Shown piece by piece: positions 38,471-46,232 of a stretch of DNA of 51,192 nt; position 1 is the stretch's first letter; every line of letters begins with the position of its first letter. This DNA is from a virus. Taxonomy: Duplodnaviria; Heunggongvirae; Uroviricota; Caudoviricetes. Position numbers and translations under genes: made by a program. A model generated the notes under the pieces. It worked only from the letters and a program-made list of their open reading frames with translations, was not told the DNA's origin and did not search any database. The DNA lies in the IMG/VR virus record IMGVR_UViG_2627854098_000004, one strand, 5' to 3'.

Positions 38471-38502
38471 AATGACTCCTGTGGATTGATCCAGTAATGA
38501 CC

Positions 38503-38799
38503 TCAGAATTCCATCTGGATTTGTTCAGAACGCTCGGTTGCCGCCGGGCGTTTTTTATTGGTGAGTCCATCAAGCGCATACTTAAAAGCCCTGCTAATCG
38601 GACTGATGTCTGATGCCATTCCGAAAGCACACAAGACCGAAGCAATAAATCTCCAGTCCGTTCTGCTTATCTTCGATTCATGACAGCCAATCATCTTTGC
38701 CAGACCGCGCTGGGTAATAGCTGACAGATTGATAAGTAAATCTGTTTCTGCGCGATCAACGTCACGCTGTGATAGTTTGCTGTAACTTGTTCTTTCCAT
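38503..38799 (-). CDS. cII: CII transcriptional activator (lambda-type C-terminus, divergent N-terminal part)
   Basis: 98 aa ending LTNKKRPAATERSEQIQMEF as in lambda CII; positioned between nutR and O. Confidence 0.75.
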   Translation of the reverse strand: MERTSYSKLSQRDVDRAETDLLINLSAITQRGLAKMIGCHESKISRTDWRFIASVLCAFGMASDISPISRAFKYALDGLTNKKRPAATERSEQIQMEF

Positions 38800-38884
38800 T
38801 TCTTAAGATTTCCAATAGTGAATAGTTAGTTGAAAGGTATGCGTGGAAACGCATATGGCCTTAGTTGGTCAGATATCTTGGAAC

Positions 38885-39156: not shown

Positions 39157-39267
39157 ATGCCCTCCATAGTAAACACGAATAAAAAAATACAATATGTACT
39201 TTGCGAATACAAGTAAAAATACACATTGTGCATGGATGGTTCCAGTACAGAGCGTAATAATAAGGAC
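39157..39267. promoter_or_regulatory. OR operator / pR / pRM region
   Basis: Divergent cI/cro spacer with repeated ATACA-containing quasi-palindromes; candidate pR on the - strand has -35 TTGTAT and -10 TATTTT (plus-strand 39184-39212); the element AAAGTACATAT is shared with the pL region. Confidence 0.5.
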
Positions 39268-39927
39268 ATGAAAATGAAATGGTATGAACTGGCTAGATCC
39301 AGAATGAAAGAGCTCGGCATAACTCAAGAGAAGTTAGCCGAAGAGCTAGGTATGACGCAGGGTGGGATTGGACACTGGTTGCGCGGATCTCGTCATCCAT
39401 CTCTTAGTGATATTGGTGTGGTGTTTAAATACCTTGGTATTGATAACATATCATTCAACCACGACGGGACATTTTCACCTGTTGGCGAATACTCATCGGC
39501 CCCAGTTAAAAAACAATATGAGTACCCTGTTTTTTCTCATGTTCAGGCTGGGATGTTCTCTCCAGAACTCAGAACCTTTACCAAAGGCGATGCGGAGAGA
39601 TTGGTAAGCACAACCAAAAAAGCCAGTGACTCTGCATTCTGGCTTGAGGTTGAAGGTAACTCAATGACCGCACCAACAGGTTCCAAACCCAGCTTTCCTG
39701 ACGGGATGTTAATTCTGGTTGACCCTGAGCAAGCTGTTGAGCCCGGCGATTTCTGCATAGCCAGACTTGGTGGTGATGAATTTACCTTCAAGAAACTGAT
39801 CAGGGATAGCGGTCAGGTGTTTCTACAGCCACTAAACCCACAATACCCAATGATCCCATGCAATGAGAGTTGTTCCGTTGTGGGGAAAGTTATCGCCAGC
39901 CAATGGCCTGAAGAGACGTTTGGGTGA
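39268..39927 (+). CDS. cI: CI repressor (lambda-identical C-terminal cleavage/dimerisation domain, different N-terminal DNA-binding domain)
   Basis: ORF 39226..39927; C-terminal about 130 aa match lambda CI as I recall it; N-terminal HTH differs, implying a non-lambda immunity; start could be 39232, 39268 or 39274. Confidence 0.85.
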
Positions 39928-39966
39928 TGAAACCACTTTTATCTACAATTTACAGGGCGGTAAACA

Positions 39967-40524
39967 TTGGCAAAAATAGATGATTATCAGCCAAGCCAAG
40001 TAGAAGTTGATAAAGTACTTTATTGTAAAAAAATAGTTAACTTTTCTGGCGTTAAATGGAAACAGAAACCAAGTCGCTCTGATATGTGGCTACAAGCCCA
40101 TATCATCCCCTTGGATGAGGATTGTATACCTATACAAGGGCTAAAGTTTGAACTGAAATGGAAACCAGATCAGGATTCAGAACCTGATGACCCGATTTCT
40201 TACCCTAAAATAAATATTATTGCTTTCTATCATAACAAGAGGGTTTTCGCGGTAGATACCTATCACTTTGACAAACACACGAATAGTTACAAGGTCGATC
40301 ATCCGAAGTACCAAGATATCATTTACGGTGCTCACTACCATGTATACTATGAAGAAGCTGGATACTATAGTGATAGAATAGCGTTTCCAATCGAAGATGA
40401 CATAAACCCAGATGACCTGGTAGGGTATTGGAATTACTTCTGTAAACATCTGAACATAACTTACTCTGGGAGAATACCTTTACCGCTTGAAGATGAGTCG
40501 GGGCAAATGGGGTTTGGAATATGA
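39967..40524 (+). CDS. hypothetical protein A of the cI-downstream cassette (185 aa, possible TTG start)
   Basis: Begins 39 nt after the cI stop on the same strand; AT-rich; no transmembrane segment or motif I recognise. Confidence 0.6.
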   Translation: MAKIDDYQPSQVEVDKVLYCKKIVNFSGVKWKQKPSRSDMWLQAHIIPLDEDCIPIQGLKFELKWKPDQDSEPDDPISYPKINIIAFYHNKRVFAVDTYHFDKHTNSYKVDHPKYQDIIYGAHYHVYYEEAGYYSDRIAFPIEDDINPDDLVGYWNYFCKHLNITYSGRIPLPLEDESGQMGFGI

Positions 40525-41273
40525 TGTGCTCAACAGTGATCTCACAACTAGGTTTCGAATGCCATCCAATAGGCAAGACCTTGAGAATTATCAGTCCATT
40601 CACTTACTGTGATGATGGAGAGCATGTCGGTGCCTTTATCCGTGAAGTCAATGGTAGGTATTTAGTTAGTGACAGATGCGATGCCTTAATGAATATGGAG
40701 GCAAGAGGGATCTCGCTTACCAAAAAACGACTTGATGAGATACGACAATTACTGCTTAAAGAAGGCGCAGAACTCAATGCTCGAGGAGAAATCATTGCTT
40801 GGGCAACAGAAAAGGATGTCGGTGCGATTACATCGAACATAATTAGAGCTGGTATACTCGCATCAACTTTGTCGTTAGACTGGTATCAGCCAGTTCAAGC
40901 TGAAAAGTTTGAAAGTATGGTTATTGATTATCTATATCACACAGAGCTTAGAGACGCACTTTCTCTTCGTGAAAACGTATATGGCTTGAGTGGACATCAA
41001 ATTACCGTCCCTGTAACAATAAAAACCGACATACCTAAATACGTTTTTACATCAAGCGTGAAACACGGAGGAAGCTGGAATAGTGCTTACTCATTGCTTG
41101 GGAAACTAATTGATCTTAAAGCTTCAAGTGAGGAGTATAACAACAGATTTGTTGTTATAGACAGCGAAGCAATTGGTGATCAAATGCAACAACTCTCCTT
41201 ACTCTTCCATGAATCAAGCCAAGTTCTACCATTCTCCAAAAGAGAGACTTGGGTTAAGAGACTTGCAGCATAA
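40521..41273 (+). CDS. hypothetical protein B of the cI-downstream cassette (250 aa)
   Basis: ATG overlaps the stop of gene A (ATGA at 40521-40524); AT-rich; no recognisable motif; followed by a terminator. Confidence 0.65.
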   Translation: MMCSTVISQLGFECHPIGKTLRIISPFTYCDDGEHVGAFIREVNGRYLVSDRCDALMNMEARGISLTKKRLDEIRQLLLKEGAELNARGEIIAWATEKDVGAITSNIIRAGILASTLSLDWYQPVQAEKFESMVIDYLYHTELRDALSLRENVYGLSGHQITVPVTIKTDIPKYVFTSSVKHGGSWNSAYSLLGKLIDLKASSEEYNNRFVVIDSEAIGDQMQQLSLLFHESSQVLPFSKRETWVKRLAA

Positions 41274-41277
41274 TACA

Positions 41278-41304
41278 ACCCGGCCTCAGCGCCGGGTTTT
41301 CTTT
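41278..41304 (+). terminator. intrinsic terminator ending the cI-cassette operon
   Basis: CCCGGC-CTCAGC-GCCGGG followed by TTTTCTTT. Confidence 0.65.
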
Positions 41305-41492
41305 GCCTCACGTTCGCCCACCTAAAAACACATAACCAATTATATTTATTGAAAAATAAATAGATGCAACCCACTAAACCACGCAATTCTGATCTCTCCT
41401 TACATCGCCGAGGCAATACATCCACGCTAAAAAACAACACTATTAAATACAAAGCGTTATAAAAAACCACGCCAACTTACAACAAATTGTAT

Positions 41493-41520
41493 TGATCTTG
41501 TAAAGTACATATCGTACTAT
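41493..41520 (+). promoter_or_regulatory. candidate pL promoter with overlapping operator
   Basis: -35 TTGATC, 16-bp spacer, -10 TACTAT; the spacer contains AAAGTACATATCGTACT, the same quasi-palindrome class as in OR. Confidence 0.45.
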
Positions 41521-41566
41521 TTAACCGTCAGCAGGACGCTGGAAGCCAAATGGAACAGACTGGCAG

Positions 41567-41611
41567 GCTCTTTAAACAACGTCGACTCTCGACTACGTGG
41601 CTGAAAAGCCA
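41567..41611 (+). promoter_or_regulatory. nutL: boxA-like GCTCTTTA, intervening hairpin GTCGA-CTC-TCGAC, boxB-like hairpin GGCU-GAAA-AGCC
   Basis: Between the pL candidate and the N start; architecture parallels nutR. Confidence 0.55.
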
Positions 41612-41709
41612 GATCACCCAACCACATAAGCTGTGGGATGCAATGCCGAAGCAACCGTCTCAGGAGGAGCTTCGAGATTGCATCGCCAAAGTTTATTCGG
41701 GAGGAATCC

Positions 41710-41798
41710 ATGTCCAGAAAAACAGAATTTAAAGGCACCGCAGCTTCTCGCCGTAGAGCTCGTCGCGCAAATCTGCAAAGTCAGGAGGCGATCAGCTC
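41710..41798 (+). pseudogene. N: N antiterminator, 5' fragment (codons 1-29), interrupted by IS66
   Basis: ATG 41710 with RBS GGAGGAA; arginine-rich N-terminus MSRKTEFKGTAASRRRARRA; reading frame continues at 44249 after the IS and one copy of the target duplication. Confidence 0.55.
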
Positions 41799-41835
41799 GT
41801 AAGCGTGCAGCAAGAACCGTATTGACGGGGATGTG

Positions 41836-43374
41836 TTATTCAGTCGGCAGTGCTACGCGCCAGGGGAGCAGTTCGCCGACCCGGTTTATCGGCCAGTCGG
41901 CTATGACGTCAAGGACATAGCGGAGGTAGCTTTCTGGCTCCACTCCGTTCAGTTTGCACGTCCCGATCAGGCTGTACAGCAGCGCTCCCCGCTCTCCTCC
42001 ATGATCCGAACCGAAGAACAGGTAGTTTTTGCGGCCCAGACTGACCATCCGCAACGCATTTTCAGCGATGTTATTGTCCGCCTCAGCCCAGCCATCATCT
42101 GCATAGTACGTCAGCGCCGGCCACTGGTTCAGGGCGTATGCGAACGCTTTCGCCAGTTCTGAGTGTCGCGACAGGGTTTTCATCTTTTCACGCAGCCAGC
42201 TTTCCAGGGATTTCAGCAGCGGTTTCGTTTTCAACTGACGTTCGGCAAGGCGCTGCTCCGCCGTCATTCCCCTTATCTCTGCCTCGATGGCGTACAGTTC
42301 GCCGATCCGTTTCAGCGCTTCCTCCGTCAGGGCTGACGGGGTGCGAACGTGCACATCGTGGATTTTACGGCGGGCGTGAGCCCAACAGGCGGCTTCCGTT
42401 ATCCGGCCATCCCGGTACAGCTCGTTGAACCCGGCGTATGCATCCGCCTGCAGTACACCACTGAACCCCGCAAGATGGGTCTGCGGATGGATGCCTTTTC
42501 TGTCCGGGCTGTAAGCGAACCACACCGCCGGCGCCAGCGTTGACCCGGCGTTACGGTCGTCACGAACGTAGGTCCATAACCGCCCGGTCTTCGTTTTCTT
42601 ATTGCCTGGCAACAGCACCGGGACAGGCGTGTCATCAGCATGGAGCTTACCGTCAGTCAGCACATAGCCATGAAGCGCCTCTTCCAGCGGAGACAGCAGC
42701 CGGCAGCATGCATCCACCCAGCCCGACAGCAGTGAACGGCTCAGCTCCACACCTTGCCGGCCGTATATTTCTGACTGGCGATACAGCGGGGTGTGCTCTG
42801 CATACTTCGAGGTCAGCACGCGGGCCAGCAGCCCCGGTCCGGCGATACCCCGCTCGATGGGCCGCGAAGGTGCAGGTGCCTGCACGATGGCATCGCACTG
42901 AGTACAGGCATGTTTTTCCCGTACCGTCCGGATAACCCGGAAGGCGCTACGCATCAACTCCAGCTGTTCGGCGGTATCCTCGCCCAGATAGCTCAGTGAA
43001 CCGCCGCAGTTCGGGCAGCACGGCGCCGCAGGCAACAGTCGCTTTTCGTCACGGGGTAGTGATTCAGGGAACGGCTTACGGGTGCGGGTCTGACGCAACG
43101 GACGCTGTACTGCCGGGTCATACACCCTACCAGTCAGCGTATCGCTCTCTTTCTGAAGCCGGTTCAGATCGGCTTCCATTTGTGCGATACGGCGGGAGAC
43201 TTTTTCGGAACGACTGCCGAAGTTCATCCGGCGGAGTTTATCCAGCTGCGCCTGCAGATGGTCTATTTCGCGCTCCCGGTTGCTCAGCTTTTCCTGCAGG
43301 GCGTGGATCAGCGCTTCCTGTTCGGCCAGGCGCTGTTTCAGCAGGAAGATGTCGTCAGAAGAGATGTCGTTCAT
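41836..43374 (-). CDS. IS66-family transposase TnpC
   Basis: 512 aa; IS66 transposase with zinc-ribbon CxxC motifs. Confidence 0.85.
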
Positions 43375-43423
43375 AAGCCCGTATTTTACCGGGCTTATTC
43401 TGTGACAACCAGGATAAAGAGAT

Positions 43424-43771
43424 TTACAGCATGGTCAGGGAGGTCAGCAGCCGCTTAGGCTGTCGCCAGTCGATACCTTCCAGCAGCATCGCCAGCTGCG
43501 CCTGTGTAAGGAACACTTTGCCATCACGGGCTGACGGCCAGGCGAAGCGCCCACGCTCCAGCCGTTTGGTCAGGAGGCACAGTCCGTCACCGGTGGACCA
43601 CAGCAGTTTAACCTGACTGCCGCTGCGGCCCCGGAAAATGAAAACATGGCCGGACATGGGATCGTCTTTCAGCGCCGTCTGTACTTTCGCAGCCAGGCCG
43701 TTGAAGCCATTTCTCATATCAGTGATACCGGCAACCAGCCAAATTTTGGTCCCGGAAGGTAACGGGATCAT
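43424..43771 (-). CDS. IS66-family TnpB
   Basis: 115 aa; [27 protein letters not shown]. Confidence 0.85.
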
Positions 43772-44169
43772 CGCTTCAGTTCCTGTATCAGCAGAGTCAG
43801 GAGCTTTTCGCTGACATTGCCATTGAAGCGGAGCGTCCCGTGCCGGAACGTTACCTCACAGCTGATACTGAGGGTTTCCGGGTCCTCTGCGAGCGATTCT
43901 GGCTGTTCGGCAGCTGCATCGAGAGTCACAGGAAGTAGCTGGGGGCTCTCTGAAGAAGGTAATAGCAGCTTTCCCTCGCGCCATTGTTGTCGCCATTTGA
44001 ACAACAGATTGGCGTTAATGCCATTTTCAAGAGCAAGTTTTGAGATGGATATCCCGGGTTCACAGGAGGCAGCAACGAGCTGCTGTTTAAATTCGGGAGG
44101 ATAATTAGGGCAGCCTTTTCGCCTGCCGGGAGTCACATTTTTCTGCATATCTGACACTTTGGTTCCCAC
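43768..44169 (-). CDS. IS66-family TnpA
   Basis: 133 aa; ATGA-type overlap with tnpB. Confidence 0.8.
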   Translation of the reverse strand: MGTKVSDMQKNVTPGRRKGCPNYPPEFKQQLVAASCEPGISISKLALENGINANLLFKWRQQWREGKLLLPSSESPQLLPVTLDAAAEQPESLAEDPETLSISCEVTFRHGTLRFNGNVSEKLLTLLIQELKR

Positions 44170-44240
44170 TACTTATTTGGTGGACACCACTTTGTCTAAT
44201 TCGTCAGATTCTGACCAGACGGTTCAGGCTGTACGCTTAC

Positions 44241-44432
44241 ATCAGCTCCGACAAGCTACACAGGCCAACCCCTTCACGAGTGGTCTTGCAATGCAAGCTC
44301 AAACCAGCAATGAGAGCAGAAGTGATAACTCTGACAACGTTGACCAGAAAATATGAAGGTTCAACTTGTCTTCCGAACGTAGCTCTTTACGCGGCAGGCT
44401 ACCGGAAATCAAAACAACTGACGGCGAGATGA
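44241..44432 (+). pseudogene. N: N antiterminator, 3' fragment
   Basis: In-frame continuation of the 41710 ORF once the IS and one target-duplication copy are removed; stop TGA at 44430-44432; reconstructed N is 90 aa. Confidence 0.5.
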
Positions 44433-44448
44433 TAAATTCATTTGCTAA

Positions 44449-45030
44449 TTACTTGTTTTTGCCATGCTTATCCTGAGCGATAAGTTCATCCATAAGGCTG
44501 TCTGCCTTCCCGGCAAACCTAATGTAGCACTCATGTCTATAGCTTTCAGGGATAACGAAACGGTCGGTATCAGGATATCCAACAGCAGGAGGCCTTCGAA
44601 CGAGGAGTCCTTTTTTGAGCAATGAAATTGATTCATGAGCGCCCTTTTCCGTTTGTAGCTGGTTATTAGCGGCTACAGCGAATGCCAAATACGCTCTTTC
44701 TCCAAGAGTTAACGAATCAAACAAATCTTGCACATATTTTTCTTCTTTAGATTTGCGCTTCTGAGCAGCGAATACCTCAATTCTTTCAGTCACAGCGTGA
44801 TAAGCGGAATTAACAACGCCGTTAAGCACATAGCTAACGCAAAACAACAGGATGTAATACATCCAGTAATGAGGAAGGATTTCTGGATTATGCAGGTTTA
44901 TCCATTCTTTTACGCTTACCGGCATAACAATAATCAATATGATCAGGATGATTAGCATATGAATCAACTGTTTAAGTGTCATTCCTTGCAGGAAAAAATG
45001 CATTAGTTCCTGCCACCATGAGTTGTTCAT
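44449..45030 (-). CDS. sieB: superinfection exclusion protein SieB-like membrane protein
   Basis: 193 aa; N-terminal hydrophobic segment LIHMLIILIILIIVMPV; located between N and ral as sieB is in lambda. Confidence 0.65.
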   Translation of the reverse strand: MNNSWWQELMHFFLQGMTLKQLIHMLIILIILIIVMPVSVKEWINLHNPEILPHYWMYYILLFCVSYVLNGVVNSAYHAVTERIEVFAAQKRKSKEEKYVQDLFDSLTLGERAYLAFAVAANNQLQTEKGAHESISLLKKGLLVRRPPAVGYPDTDRFVIPESYRHECYIRFAGKADSLMDELIAQDKHGKNK

Positions 45031-45995: not shown

Positions 45996-46067
45996 GCGCG
46001 GCGTTACCGCATACCAATTACGCTTCACTCGAGGCGTTTTTCGTTATGTATAAATAAGGAGCACACC

Positions 46068-46232
46068 ATGCAATATGCCATTGCAGGGTGGCCTGTTGCT
46101 GGCTGCCCTTCCGAATCTTTACTTGAACGAATCACCCGTAAATTACGTGACGGATGGAAACGCCTTATCGACATACTTAATCAGCCAGGAGTCCCAAAAA
46201 ATGGATCAAACAATTATGGCTATCCAGACTAA
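46068..46232 (+). CDS. cIII: CIII (FtsH inhibitor, 54 aa)
   Basis: ATG 46068 with [64 protein letters not shown]; below the ORF-track cutoff. Confidence 0.85.
   Translation: MQYAIAGWPVAGCPSESLLERITRKLRDGWKRLIDILNQPGVPKNGSNNYGYPD

What the first reader, a model, noticed from the sequence alone, without database searches (positions are those of the whole stretch)
39967..41304. Unrecognised AT-rich two-gene operon in the rexAB slot directly downstream of cI: candidate anti-phage or exclusion system
Two genes (185 aa and 250 aa) start 39 nt after the cI stop on the same strand with no terminator in between, so they should be co-transcribed with the repressor in lysogens. They are translationally coupled (ATGA overlap at 40521-40524) and closed by a clean intrinsic terminator (41278-41304). 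The DNA is visibly more AT-rich than the flanking lambda-like genes. In lambda this position holds rexA-rexB, and lambdoid immunity regions are known hot spots for defence cargo. Neither protein looks like RexA/RexB (no polytopic membrane protein), and I cannot place either in a family I know.
Basis: partly seen in the sequence, partly recalled or inferred. Interest (0 to 1): 0.8.

Follow-up and report, generated by a model that had tools for sequence, protein, structure and literature searches.

The report
Untested two-gene cassette replacing rexAB
A lambda-like prophage carries, exactly where phage lambda has its rexA-rexB exclusion genes, a conserved pair of uncharacterised genes that is very probably an anti-phage system; two published computational screens already flag it, but nobody has tested it.

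Summary
Two overlapping genes follow cI by 39 nt on the same strand: A (39967-40524, TTG start, 185 aa) and B (40521-41273, 250 aa). A hairpin terminator closes them, and GC is 40% against 50% for the window.

Alignment to phage lambda shows that the pair replaces rexA-rexB base for base, between the cI stop codon and the shared terminator. Prophages with the identical CI protein carry other cargo between the same breakpoints.

The pair is a real, strongly conserved module. A sat directly upstream of B in all 80 viral contigs and in every other relative examined. A CI-like repressor gene preceded it in 78 of the 80, spread over 30 repressor types. A never starts with ATG.

B combines a DUF1828 domain (secretion-chaperone-like fold) with a restriction-endonuclease-like domain that lacks the canonical catalytic motif. 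A has no fold match and carries an invariant Asp/His cluster.

The cassette is not unrecognised. It is a distant relative of the PADLOC candidate PDC-M24, and DefensePredictor lists both exact proteins as predicted defence genes, uncloned.

Best reading: a lysogen-expressed anti-phage system of unknown mechanism. It is a good but unsurprising candidate.

The parts
39182..39202 (.). Operator-like sequence in the cro/cI divergent region (oR side)
   Evidence: It has an inverted copy at 41502-41522, 86% complementary over 21 nt (pair I1; also I9).
39232..39927 (+). cI-like repressor gene (HTH plus S24 peptidase). This is the RefSeq start; the likely true start is the ATG at 39268 or 39274.
   Evidence: ORF. 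It is annotated as LexA family protein WP_001302016.1 in identical prophages. It is 71% identical to lambda CI over 212 aa.
39928..39966 (+). 39-nt spacer between cI and gene A, with no terminator. It is the left end of the exchangeable segment.
   Evidence: No terminator-like site here. Homology to lambda and to prophages with other cargo stops at 39925-39928.
39967..40524 (+). Gene A, 185 aa, TTG start. Acidic, cytosolic, mostly beta, with no known fold. Invariant residues are K22, W31, R92, D97, N106, G121, H123, H125, F158 and P173; H104 is nearly invariant. It ends in a conserved, low-confidence C-terminal tail (SGQxG).
   Evidence: Family and homologue searches: phrog_2017, 6e-67; weak DUF6978; weak PDC-M24A. 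Structure and fold searches: 29, 36, 77. Alignment: 55. Conserved non-ATG start: 85, 100.
40521..41273 (+). Gene B, 250 aa, with its ATG inside the ATGA overlap. The N-terminal DUF1828 domain (residues 1-122) has a YbjN / type III secretion chaperone-like fold. The C-terminal DUF1829-like domain (128-250) has a restriction-endonuclease-like alpha-beta-beta-beta-alpha-beta core without a conserved PD-(D/E)xK motif.
   Evidence: Family searches: DUF1828, 33.5 bits, above the cutoff of 22; PDC-M24B, full length, 4.7e-10 to 1.8e-15; phrog_1960, 1.6e-106. Structure: 30, 38. Alignment: 70. Published HHblits DUF1829 annotation: 91.
41277..41304 (+). Intrinsic terminator (hairpin AACCCGGCC..GGCCGGGTT plus T-run). 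It is homologous to the terminator after lambda rexB and forms the conserved right boundary of the slot.
   Evidence: pair I11; 43 of 45 distinct relatives have such a hairpin.
41482..41522 (.). Operator-like repeats of the oL/pL region, downstream of the cassette
   Evidence: Inverted copies of the oR-side sequences (pairs I1 and I9). The order is the same as in lambda, from rexB through the oL operators to N.
41710..41798 (+). 5' part of antiterminator gene N, cut by an IS66-family insertion. The remainder is at 44249-44432.
   Evidence: N reads as 90 aa once the IS is removed.

Best explanation
The two genes form one prophage-borne module that occupies the rexA-rexB position of a lambda-like immunity region. 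It is most likely transcribed with the repressor gene cI in the lysogen and stopped by the shared terminator.

Its most likely job is to protect the lysogen against other phages, by exclusion or abortive infection.

The proposed mechanism is inferred, not shown. A and B are made in coupled amounts and form a cytoplasmic complex. B acts as sensor and regulator: its chaperone-like DUF1828 domain holds a polypeptide, either the conserved C-terminal tail of A or a phage protein, and its restriction-endonuclease-like domain engages nucleic acid. A carries an invariant Asp/His/Asn cluster and has a translation start kept weak (never ATG). It would be the effector that is unleashed on infection.

Shown here: the anatomy, the allelic replacement of rexAB, the strict A-B pairing, the position after the repressor, purifying selection, the fold assignments for B, and the remote homology to PDC-M24.

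Inferred: expression from pRM, the defence function, the A-B complex, and which protein is the effector.
For: - Replacement of rexAB is exact. Window 39517-39928 matches lambda 37637-37226, and window 41277-41398 matches lambda 35826-35708.
- The slot exchanges cargo. Prophages with the identical CI (WP_001302016.1) and Cro carry other cargo between the same breakpoints. One of those cargo proteins hits the candidate PDC-S43.
- The cI-N interval is a documented mosaic hot spot that holds rexAB and bstA (PMC8585504).
- The pairing is strict. A lies immediately upstream of B in 80 of 80 IMG/VR loci (frameshifted in one). The same holds in all 12 other relatives examined, down to 22% identity for A and out to Aeromonas, Xenorhabdus and Pseudomonas phages. 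The stop/start overlap is conserved.
- The position after the repressor is conserved. A CI-like gene lies on the same strand 29-442 nt upstream in 78 of 80 loci. Those repressors fall into 30 clusters at 70% identity, against 7 clusters for A and 4 for B.
- Both proteins hit the two components of PADLOC candidate PDC-M24. B hits full length at 4.7e-10 to 1.8e-15. A hits weakly but through three separate PDC-M24A models.
- DefensePredictor lists both exact proteins as predicted novel defence genes. Log-odds are 5.64 for B and 4.90 to 5.42 for A, above its stringent cutoff of 4.
- Both genes are under purifying selection.
- Plaque-forming phages carry the cassette: ev017, ev207, PhiR57_1, PhiR63_2 and an Stx1a phage.
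Against: - No experiment exists. The cassette is absent from the 118 units cloned in the DefensePredictor study, and PDC systems are untested candidates. No paper mentions either protein.
- DefensePredictor validated only about 45% of the units it tested, and it uses neighbouring genes as input. It is therefore not independent of the prophage context.
- The A hits to PDC-M24A and DUF6978 are weak and partial: E about 5e-4, 22 bits against a Pfam cutoff of 29.6.
- B's endonuclease-like domain lacks a conserved PD-(D/E)xK motif. K173 varies. Only S157, G158, T177 and D198 are invariant, and H159 nearly so. Nuclease activity is doubtful.
- The link to the only validated DUF1829-containing protein, DS-6B of HipAD, was not reproduced by profile comparison.
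- Expression in the lysogen rests on analogy with lambda alone.
Confidence: 0.55

Rival explanations
1. It is a toxin-antitoxin style addiction module. It stabilises the prophage by killing or arresting cells that lose it, and has no primary anti-phage role.
For: The pair is compact and overlapping with strict co-occurrence. The start codon of A is kept weak in all 80 loci, which fits tight control of a harmful protein. A has a conserved catalytic-looking residue cluster. A frameshifted copy of A exists in L046.
Against: Neither protein resembles a known toxin or antitoxin family. The module sits in the repressor operon of phages that integrate stably, where addiction brings little. No plasmid among 72,556 carries B. 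Many toxin-antitoxin pairs act in defence anyway, so this rival overlaps the main reading.
Confidence: 0.12
2. It is an accessory of the lysogeny switch itself. It would modulate induction, repressor cleavage or the SOS response, and is functionally tied to LexA-like (S24) repressors rather than directed at other phages.
For: The association with an S24-type repressor gene directly upstream is near-absolute, 78 of 80 loci plus Aeromonas, Xenorhabdus, Pseudomonas and metagenome cases. B has a DNA-enzyme-like fold and a protein-binding fold.
Against: The same cassette variant is found with up to four unrelated repressor types, and 30 types overall, which argues against a specific partnership. 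Phages with the identical CI do without it and carry other cargo. Lambda itself carries rexAB at this spot. High lysogenic expression explains the position equally well (PMC8585504).
Confidence: 0.12
3. It is a lysogenic-conversion gene pair that benefits the host in a way unrelated to phages, such as stress tolerance or colonisation.
For: Base composition is AT-rich and foreign-looking. The cassette is enriched in extraintestinal and avian pathogenic lineages and in Nissle 1917. Such accessory genes are often terminator-bounded units expressed in lysogens.
Against: Both proteins are cytosolic, with no secretion signal or membrane segment. The family is confined to phage immunity regions across several bacterial orders, not to one niche. 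Both defence predictors flag it.
Confidence: 0.1

Closest known systems
Phage lambda RexA-RexB exclusion system
   Same: It occupies the identical genomic slot. Both lie between the cI stop codon and the same terminator hairpin, upstream of oL/pL and N, on the cI strand. Both are two genes with a similar AT bias: GC 0.409 for rexAB against 0.452 for lambda cI, and 0.401 against 0.463 here.
   Different: There is no sequence similarity by BLASTP, by profile search, or by PADLOC's RexA and RexB models, which do detect lambda's proteins. There is no membrane protein, whereas RexB is polytopic. The genes overlap by 4 nt instead of being 15 nt apart.
PADLOC phage defence candidate PDC-M24 (Payne et al., bioRxiv 10.1101/2024.01.29.577857)
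   Same: It is a two-gene unit whose B component matches PDC-M24B over its full length, and whose A component matches three PDC-M24A models and DUF6978.
   Different: The A matches are weak and partial. The family here is a small, separate, phage-borne branch: only 20 clusters at 50% identity among 1.84 billion representative proteins. PDC systems were found embedded in BREX, DISARM and type I restriction-modification loci and have not been tested.
DefensePredictor 'predicted novel defense genes' (Science 2026, PMC13092281)
   Same: The exact proteins WP_000968518.1 and WP_001062368.1 are listed with log-odds above the stringent cutoff. B is annotated there as DUF1828 plus DUF1829.
   Different: It is a prediction only. 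The cassette is not among the 118 cloned units or the validated DS systems. The validated DUF1829-bearing protein DS-6B shows no detectable relation to B.
BstA of Salmonella prophage BTP1
   Same: It is a defence gene placed directly downstream of the prophage repressor, presumed to share its promoter and ending in its own terminator. Its association with repressor genes is conserved across taxa (PMC8585504).
   Different: BstA is a single, unrelated protein with a DNA-based self-immunity element. No such element was looked for or found here.
PD-(D/E)xK nuclease-based defence proteins such as Shedu SduA and restriction endonucleases of the NgoMIV/Cfr10I group
   Same: The architecture is an N-terminal regulatory domain followed by a C-terminal restriction-endonuclease-like fold.
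   Different: The catalytic Asp and (D/E)xK residues are not conserved in B. There is no sequence-level match to any solved nuclease.

Membership tests
RexAB (lambda) | Sequence homology to RexA and RexB | tested here: not met
   PADLOC's RexA and RexB models score lambda's proteins at 9e-110 and 9e-61 but give no hit for A or B. BLASTP and profile searches against RexA and RexB find nothing.
RexAB (lambda) | A polytopic membrane component (RexB) | tested here: not met
   Maximum 19-residue hydropathy is 0.45 for A and 1.19 for B, against 2.39 for RexB.
RexAB (lambda) | Location between cI and oL/pL, on the cI strand, ended by the immunity-region terminator | tested here: met
   The flanks are homologous to lambda on both sides of rexAB. 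The operator repeats lie downstream.
PADLOC PDC-M24 | A protein matching the PDC-M24B model | tested here: met
   E = 4.7e-10, residues 2-249 against model positions 4-254 of 256. Distant family members score 4e-8 to 1.8e-15.
PADLOC PDC-M24 | A protein matching a PDC-M24A model | tested here: inconclusive
   E = 4.8e-4 over residues 104-163 only. Between 2 and 6 of the 18 family members hit each of three PDC-M24A models, all weakly.
PADLOC PDC-M24 | The two genes adjacent on one strand | tested here: met
   The genes overlap by 4 nt here and are adjacent in all relatives.
PADLOC PDC-M24 | Demonstrated anti-phage activity | not testable with these tools
   The 145 PDC systems are described as untested candidates. 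No paper mentions PDC-M24.
Pfam DUF1828 / DUF1829 proteins | DUF1828 domain scoring above the gathering cutoff | tested here: met
   33.5 bits against a cutoff of 22, residues 26-110.
Pfam DUF1828 / DUF1829 proteins | DUF1829 domain in the C-terminal half | tested here: inconclusive
   hmmscan of the C-terminal half gave no hit, and one distant relative scored 14.6 bits, below the cutoff. A published HHblits annotation gives DUF1829 at 98.8% probability for residues 155-241.
Pfam DUF6978 | Score above the gathering cutoff | tested here: not met
   22 bits against a cutoff of 29.6. Ten of 18 family members hit, all below the cutoff. This counts as remote similarity only.
PD-(D/E)xK nuclease superfamily (B, C-terminal domain) | Restriction-endonuclease-like alpha-beta-beta-beta-alpha-beta core fold | tested here: met
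PD-(D/E)xK nuclease superfamily (B, C-terminal domain) | Conserved catalytic Asp ... (Asp/Glu)-x-Lys residues | tested here: not met
   Across diverse members only S157, G158, T177 and D198 are invariant, with H159 nearly so. K173 is variable.
HipAD / DS-6 (validated DUF1829-bearing system) | Homology of B to DS-6B | tested here: not met
   hhalign probability 0.1%, E = 0.76.

The most novel reading that the evidence does not exclude
The pair is a mechanistically new kind of prophage immune module. A protein with a previously unseen fold and an Asp/His active site would be held in check through its conserved C-terminal tail by a partner. That partner would combine a secretion-chaperone-like peptide-binding domain with a catalytically degenerate endonuclease-like DNA sensor. 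A phage protein or phage DNA structure would release the effector. If so, lambda-like phages swap whole, unrelated immune mechanisms at a single fixed recombination site bounded by the cI stop codon and one terminator.
Probability: 0.2. Interest if true: 0.65.

Novelty: new variant of a known kind. Interest (0 to 1): 0.42.

Why it matters
If the pair defends against phages, it adds a new protein family, one member of which has no known fold, to the systems carried at the classic rexAB position.

It would also give a clean natural experiment. The same repressor and the same terminator flank rexAB, this pair, or other cargo, so the effect of each cargo can be compared in one genetic background.

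The cassette is identical in 241 of 5,426 complete E. coli genomes. These include the probiotic Nissle 1917, the reference strain ATCC 25922, and urinary and avian pathogenic lineages. It could therefore affect phage therapy and phage-based engineering of those strains.

The work needed is small: one clone and a phage panel.

Tried and rejected
- **RexAB homology.** Rejected, using lambda's own proteins as a positive control.
- **Known defence families in PADLOC, other than PDC-M24.** None found.
- **NCBIfam.** Only a meaningless glutathione peroxidase hit at E = 0.15.
- **Sequence search of solved structures.**
  - The close-family profiles gave only chance hits.
  - The broad A profile hit a designed Kelch-repeat protein (8pjr) at 6e-12. 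That score is the sum of six repeats, each individually insignificant (E about 40), matching one short hairpin motif. Rejected.
  - The broad B profile gave nothing.
- **A as a cupin or HNH enzyme.** Considered because of the G-x-H-x-H motif. Neither the fold hits nor the order of secondary structure elements support it.
- **B as an active PD-(D/E)xK nuclease.** The fold is supported, but the catalytic motif is not conserved.
- **A link to validated defence through DUF1829 (DS-6B of HipAD).** Not reproduced.
- **The Nissle 1917 'phage repressor' shown to reduce lambda plating (PMC5987069).** Its primers map to 38477-38844, which is the cII-family gene. It is neither cI nor the cassette, so it offers no experimental support here.
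- **An internal or private promoter for the pair.** Promoter-like sites are no more frequent than in shuffled sequence.
- **Genome-collection scan with the B alignment.** It returned only six close relatives.
- **Plasmids.** None carries a homologue of B.
- **Literature.** Searches for the protein accessions, PDC-M24, DUF1828 and DUF6978 found no functional study.

Full report
**1. The observation**

- A cI-like ORF ends with TGA at 39925-39927.
- Thirty-nine bases later, gene A begins with TTG at 39967 and runs to 40524 (185 aa).
- Gene B begins with the ATG at 40521, inside an ATGA overlap, and ends at 41273 (250 aa).
- A consensus scan finds one strong terminator-like site on this strand, a stem at 41277-41298 followed by a T-run. 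It finds none between cI and A.
- The cassette has 40.1% GC, against 46.3% for cI and 50.5% for the window. That puts it in the lowest 3.3% of windows of the same size.

The start of A is secure. An in-frame stop lies two codons upstream, and protein conservation begins at residue 2.

Both genes are under purifying selection. Non-synonymous divergence is 0.15-0.30 while synonymous sites are saturated.

**2. Where it sits**

The window is a lambda-like prophage. The replication and late-regulatory genes lie on the minus strand. cI, the pair, N, cIII and the recombination genes lie on the plus strand. A lambda cIII thermoregulator element at 46055-46113 confirms this orientation. Operator-like repeats flank the cI-A-B block at 39182-39202 and 41482-41522.

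A direct alignment with phage lambda settles the question of the 'slot'.

- Window 39517-39928 matches lambda 37637-37226 at 93%. This is the 3' part of cI, up to its stop codon.
- Homology breaks there and resumes at window 41277, which matches lambda 35826. That is the end of rexB and the hairpin that follows it (90% over 122 nt).

The pair is therefore an allelic replacement of rexA-rexB. The terminator is conserved flank rather than cassette.

The same two breakpoints separate this prophage from others that encode the identical CI protein (WP_001302016.1) and the identical Cro but carry different cargo:

| Prophage | cI relative to the window | Cargo in the slot |
|---|---|---|
| E. coli O157:H7 strain F6667 | identical protein | 66-aa and 173-aa proteins |
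| E. coli strain LHM10-1 | identical protein | Clp-fold serine protease plus a 56-aa protein |
| E. coli strain JNQH497 | DNA 93% identical | 345-aa protein |

The literature already describes the cI-N interval as a mosaic hot spot that holds rexAB and bstA (PMC8585504).

**3. How conserved the module is**

The identical cassette occurs in 241 of 5,426 complete E. coli genomes. These include Nissle 1917, ATCC 25922, the type strain, and urinary and avian pathogenic lineages. It also occurs in plaque-forming phages: ev017, ev207, PhiR57_1, PhiR63_2 and an Stx1a phage.

Diverged copies occur in Salmonella, Klebsiella, Yersinia, Providencia, Xenorhabdus, Pantoea, Aeromonas and a Pseudomonas aeruginosa phage. 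In that phage the A homologue is unannotated.

I examined 80 viral contigs that carry B:

- A lies directly upstream of B in all 80, and is frameshifted in one.
- A CI-like gene lies on the same strand, ending 29-442 nt upstream of A, in 78.
- Those repressors fall into 30 clusters at 70% identity. A falls into 7 clusters and B into 4.
- One cassette variant can be found with up to four repressor types.
- The start codon of A is never ATG: GTG in 56 loci and TTG in 24, across 22 distinct variants.
- A hairpin followed by a T-run follows B in 43 of 45 distinct downstream sequences.

Very distant pairs from metagenomes keep the same order and the overlap. In these, A is only 22-28% identical to the window protein.

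The A family is small. An exhaustive profile search of 1.84 billion representative proteins found 20 clusters.

**4. What the proteins look like**

*Protein B.*
- It has a Pfam DUF1828 domain above the curated cutoff.
- Its predicted structure has mean pLDDT 83 and two domains.
- Residues 1-122 have the secondary-structure order of the YbjN / type III secretion chaperone fold.
- Residues 128-250 form the alpha-beta-beta-beta-alpha-beta core of restriction endonucleases.
- The canonical catalytic residues are not conserved. Across diverse members the invariant C-terminal residues include S157, G158, T177 and D198, with H159 nearly invariant, and K173 varies.
- The N-terminal domain keeps C3, C14, D32, E34, D51 and E90.

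*Protein A.*
- It is mostly beta (pLDDT 82, pTM 0.81).
- It has no convincing fold match in the PDB or in the viral structure library.
- Its invariant residues look like a catalytic or ligand-binding site: K22, R92, D97, N106, H123 and H125, with H104 nearly invariant.
- Its last ten residues are conserved but predicted with low confidence.

Neither protein has a membrane segment.

**5. Relation to known systems**

The pair is not RexAB. PADLOC's Rex models detect lambda's proteins but not these, and no pairwise or profile similarity exists.

Both proteins do hit the two components of the PADLOC candidate PDC-M24.
- B hits over its full length, at 4.7e-10 here and down to 1.8e-15 for relatives.
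- A hits weakly, at about 5e-4 over its C-terminal third. The hits are consistent across three PDC-M24A models, and 10 of 18 family members also hit DUF6978.

PDC systems were proposed because they are found embedded in BREX, DISARM and type I restriction-modification loci, and they are untested.

DefensePredictor lists the exact proteins as predicted novel defence genes.
- WP_000968518.1 (B) has log-odds 5.64.
- WP_001062368.1 (A) has log-odds 4.90 and 5.42 in two genomes.
- The stringent cutoff is 4.
- B is annotated there as DUF1828 plus DUF1829.
- The cassette is absent from the list of cloned units and from the validated systems.

That paper implicates DUF1829 in defence through DS-6B. 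A profile comparison found no relation between DS-6B and B.

The phage-resistance gene reported for the Nissle 1917 prophage maps to the cII-family gene, not to this operon.

**6. Most likely function**

The best-supported reading is a lysogen-expressed anti-phage module. It rests on:
- the exact replacement of an exclusion system;
- cargo exchange at fixed breakpoints;
- the conserved position after many unrelated repressors;
- the strict two-gene coupling;
- two computational defence predictions.

The mechanism is inferred. I propose a complex in which B senses and regulates, with a peptide-binding domain joined to a nucleic-acid-binding, endonuclease-like domain. A, kept scarce by its weak start codon, would be the effector.

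I put about 0.55 on the defence function with this general logic, and much less on the details.

Three rivals remain open at roughly 0.1 each: an addiction module, an accessory of the lysogeny switch, and a phage-unrelated host benefit.

**7. Verdict**

The finding is real and well described. Its interpretation is reasonable but unproven, and it is not new as a candidate.

It is a new variant within a known kind: defence cargo in the lambdoid immunity region. One protein has an unknown fold. A specialist would find it plausible rather than surprising, so interest is moderate.

Noticed in passing
window 41799-44240: A 2,442-bp IS66-family element (three minus-strand genes; terminal repeats starting GTAAGCGT; 8-bp target duplication ATCAGCTC) is inserted in the antiterminator gene N. 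N reads as 90 aa once the element is removed. Only three complete genomes, all from poultry (APEC IMT5155, DE17, VTB96815v), share this junction. The prophage is probably unable to grow lytically, while the cI operon stays intact.
   Followed up: yes
window 39967 and loci L003-L102: Gene A never starts with ATG. The count is GTG 56 and TTG 24 in 80 viral contigs (22 distinct variants), and mostly GTG or TTG in the other relatives. A conserved weak start codon suggests that the amount of A is deliberately kept low.
   Followed up: partly
window 41277-41304; lambda 35826-35708: The terminator hairpin is shared, almost base for base, by lambda (after rexB), by this prophage and by prophages with other cargo. 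Together with the cI stop codon it marks the fixed boundaries at which cargo is exchanged.
   Followed up: yes
L019 4759-5719; L021 4769-5842; L020 4719-5756: Other cargo sits in the same slot behind the same or nearly the same CI. O157:H7 has a 66-aa protein (partial hit to candidate PDC-S43, 7.5e-9) plus a 173-aa protein. Strain LHM10-1 has a Clp-fold serine protease plus a 56-aa protein. Strain JNQH497 has a 345-aa protein. None matches a known defence model.
   Followed up: partly
window 38477-38844 (gene 38503-38799, minus strand): The 'phage repressor (pr)' gene of Nissle 1917, reported to reduce plating of lambda and Stx phages about 200-fold (PMC5987069), maps by its published primers to the cII-family gene of this prophage, not to cI.
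   Followed up: yes
L022 4486-5004 (Pseudomonas phage VB_PaD_phPA-G, PP083311.1): An unannotated homologue of gene A overlaps the start of the annotated B homologue. It lies downstream of the CI-like repressor, with one extra 216-aa gene in between.
   Followed up: partly
window 44449-45030 (minus strand): A superinfection exclusion protein B (sieB) gene lies just beyond N. The immunity region therefore carries a second exclusion function next to the cassette.
   Followed up: no
window 41550-41732: A 60-aa ORF annotated as hypothetical in RefSeq lies in the leader between oL/pL and N and overlaps the start of N. It may simply be the nutL leader region.
   Followed up: no
L046 4448-5004: One viral contig carries the E. 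coli cassette with gene A split by a frameshift while B is intact.
   Followed up: no
window 46055-46113: A lambda cIII thermoregulator RNA element is present (Rfam RF01804, 88.5 bits).
   Followed up: no
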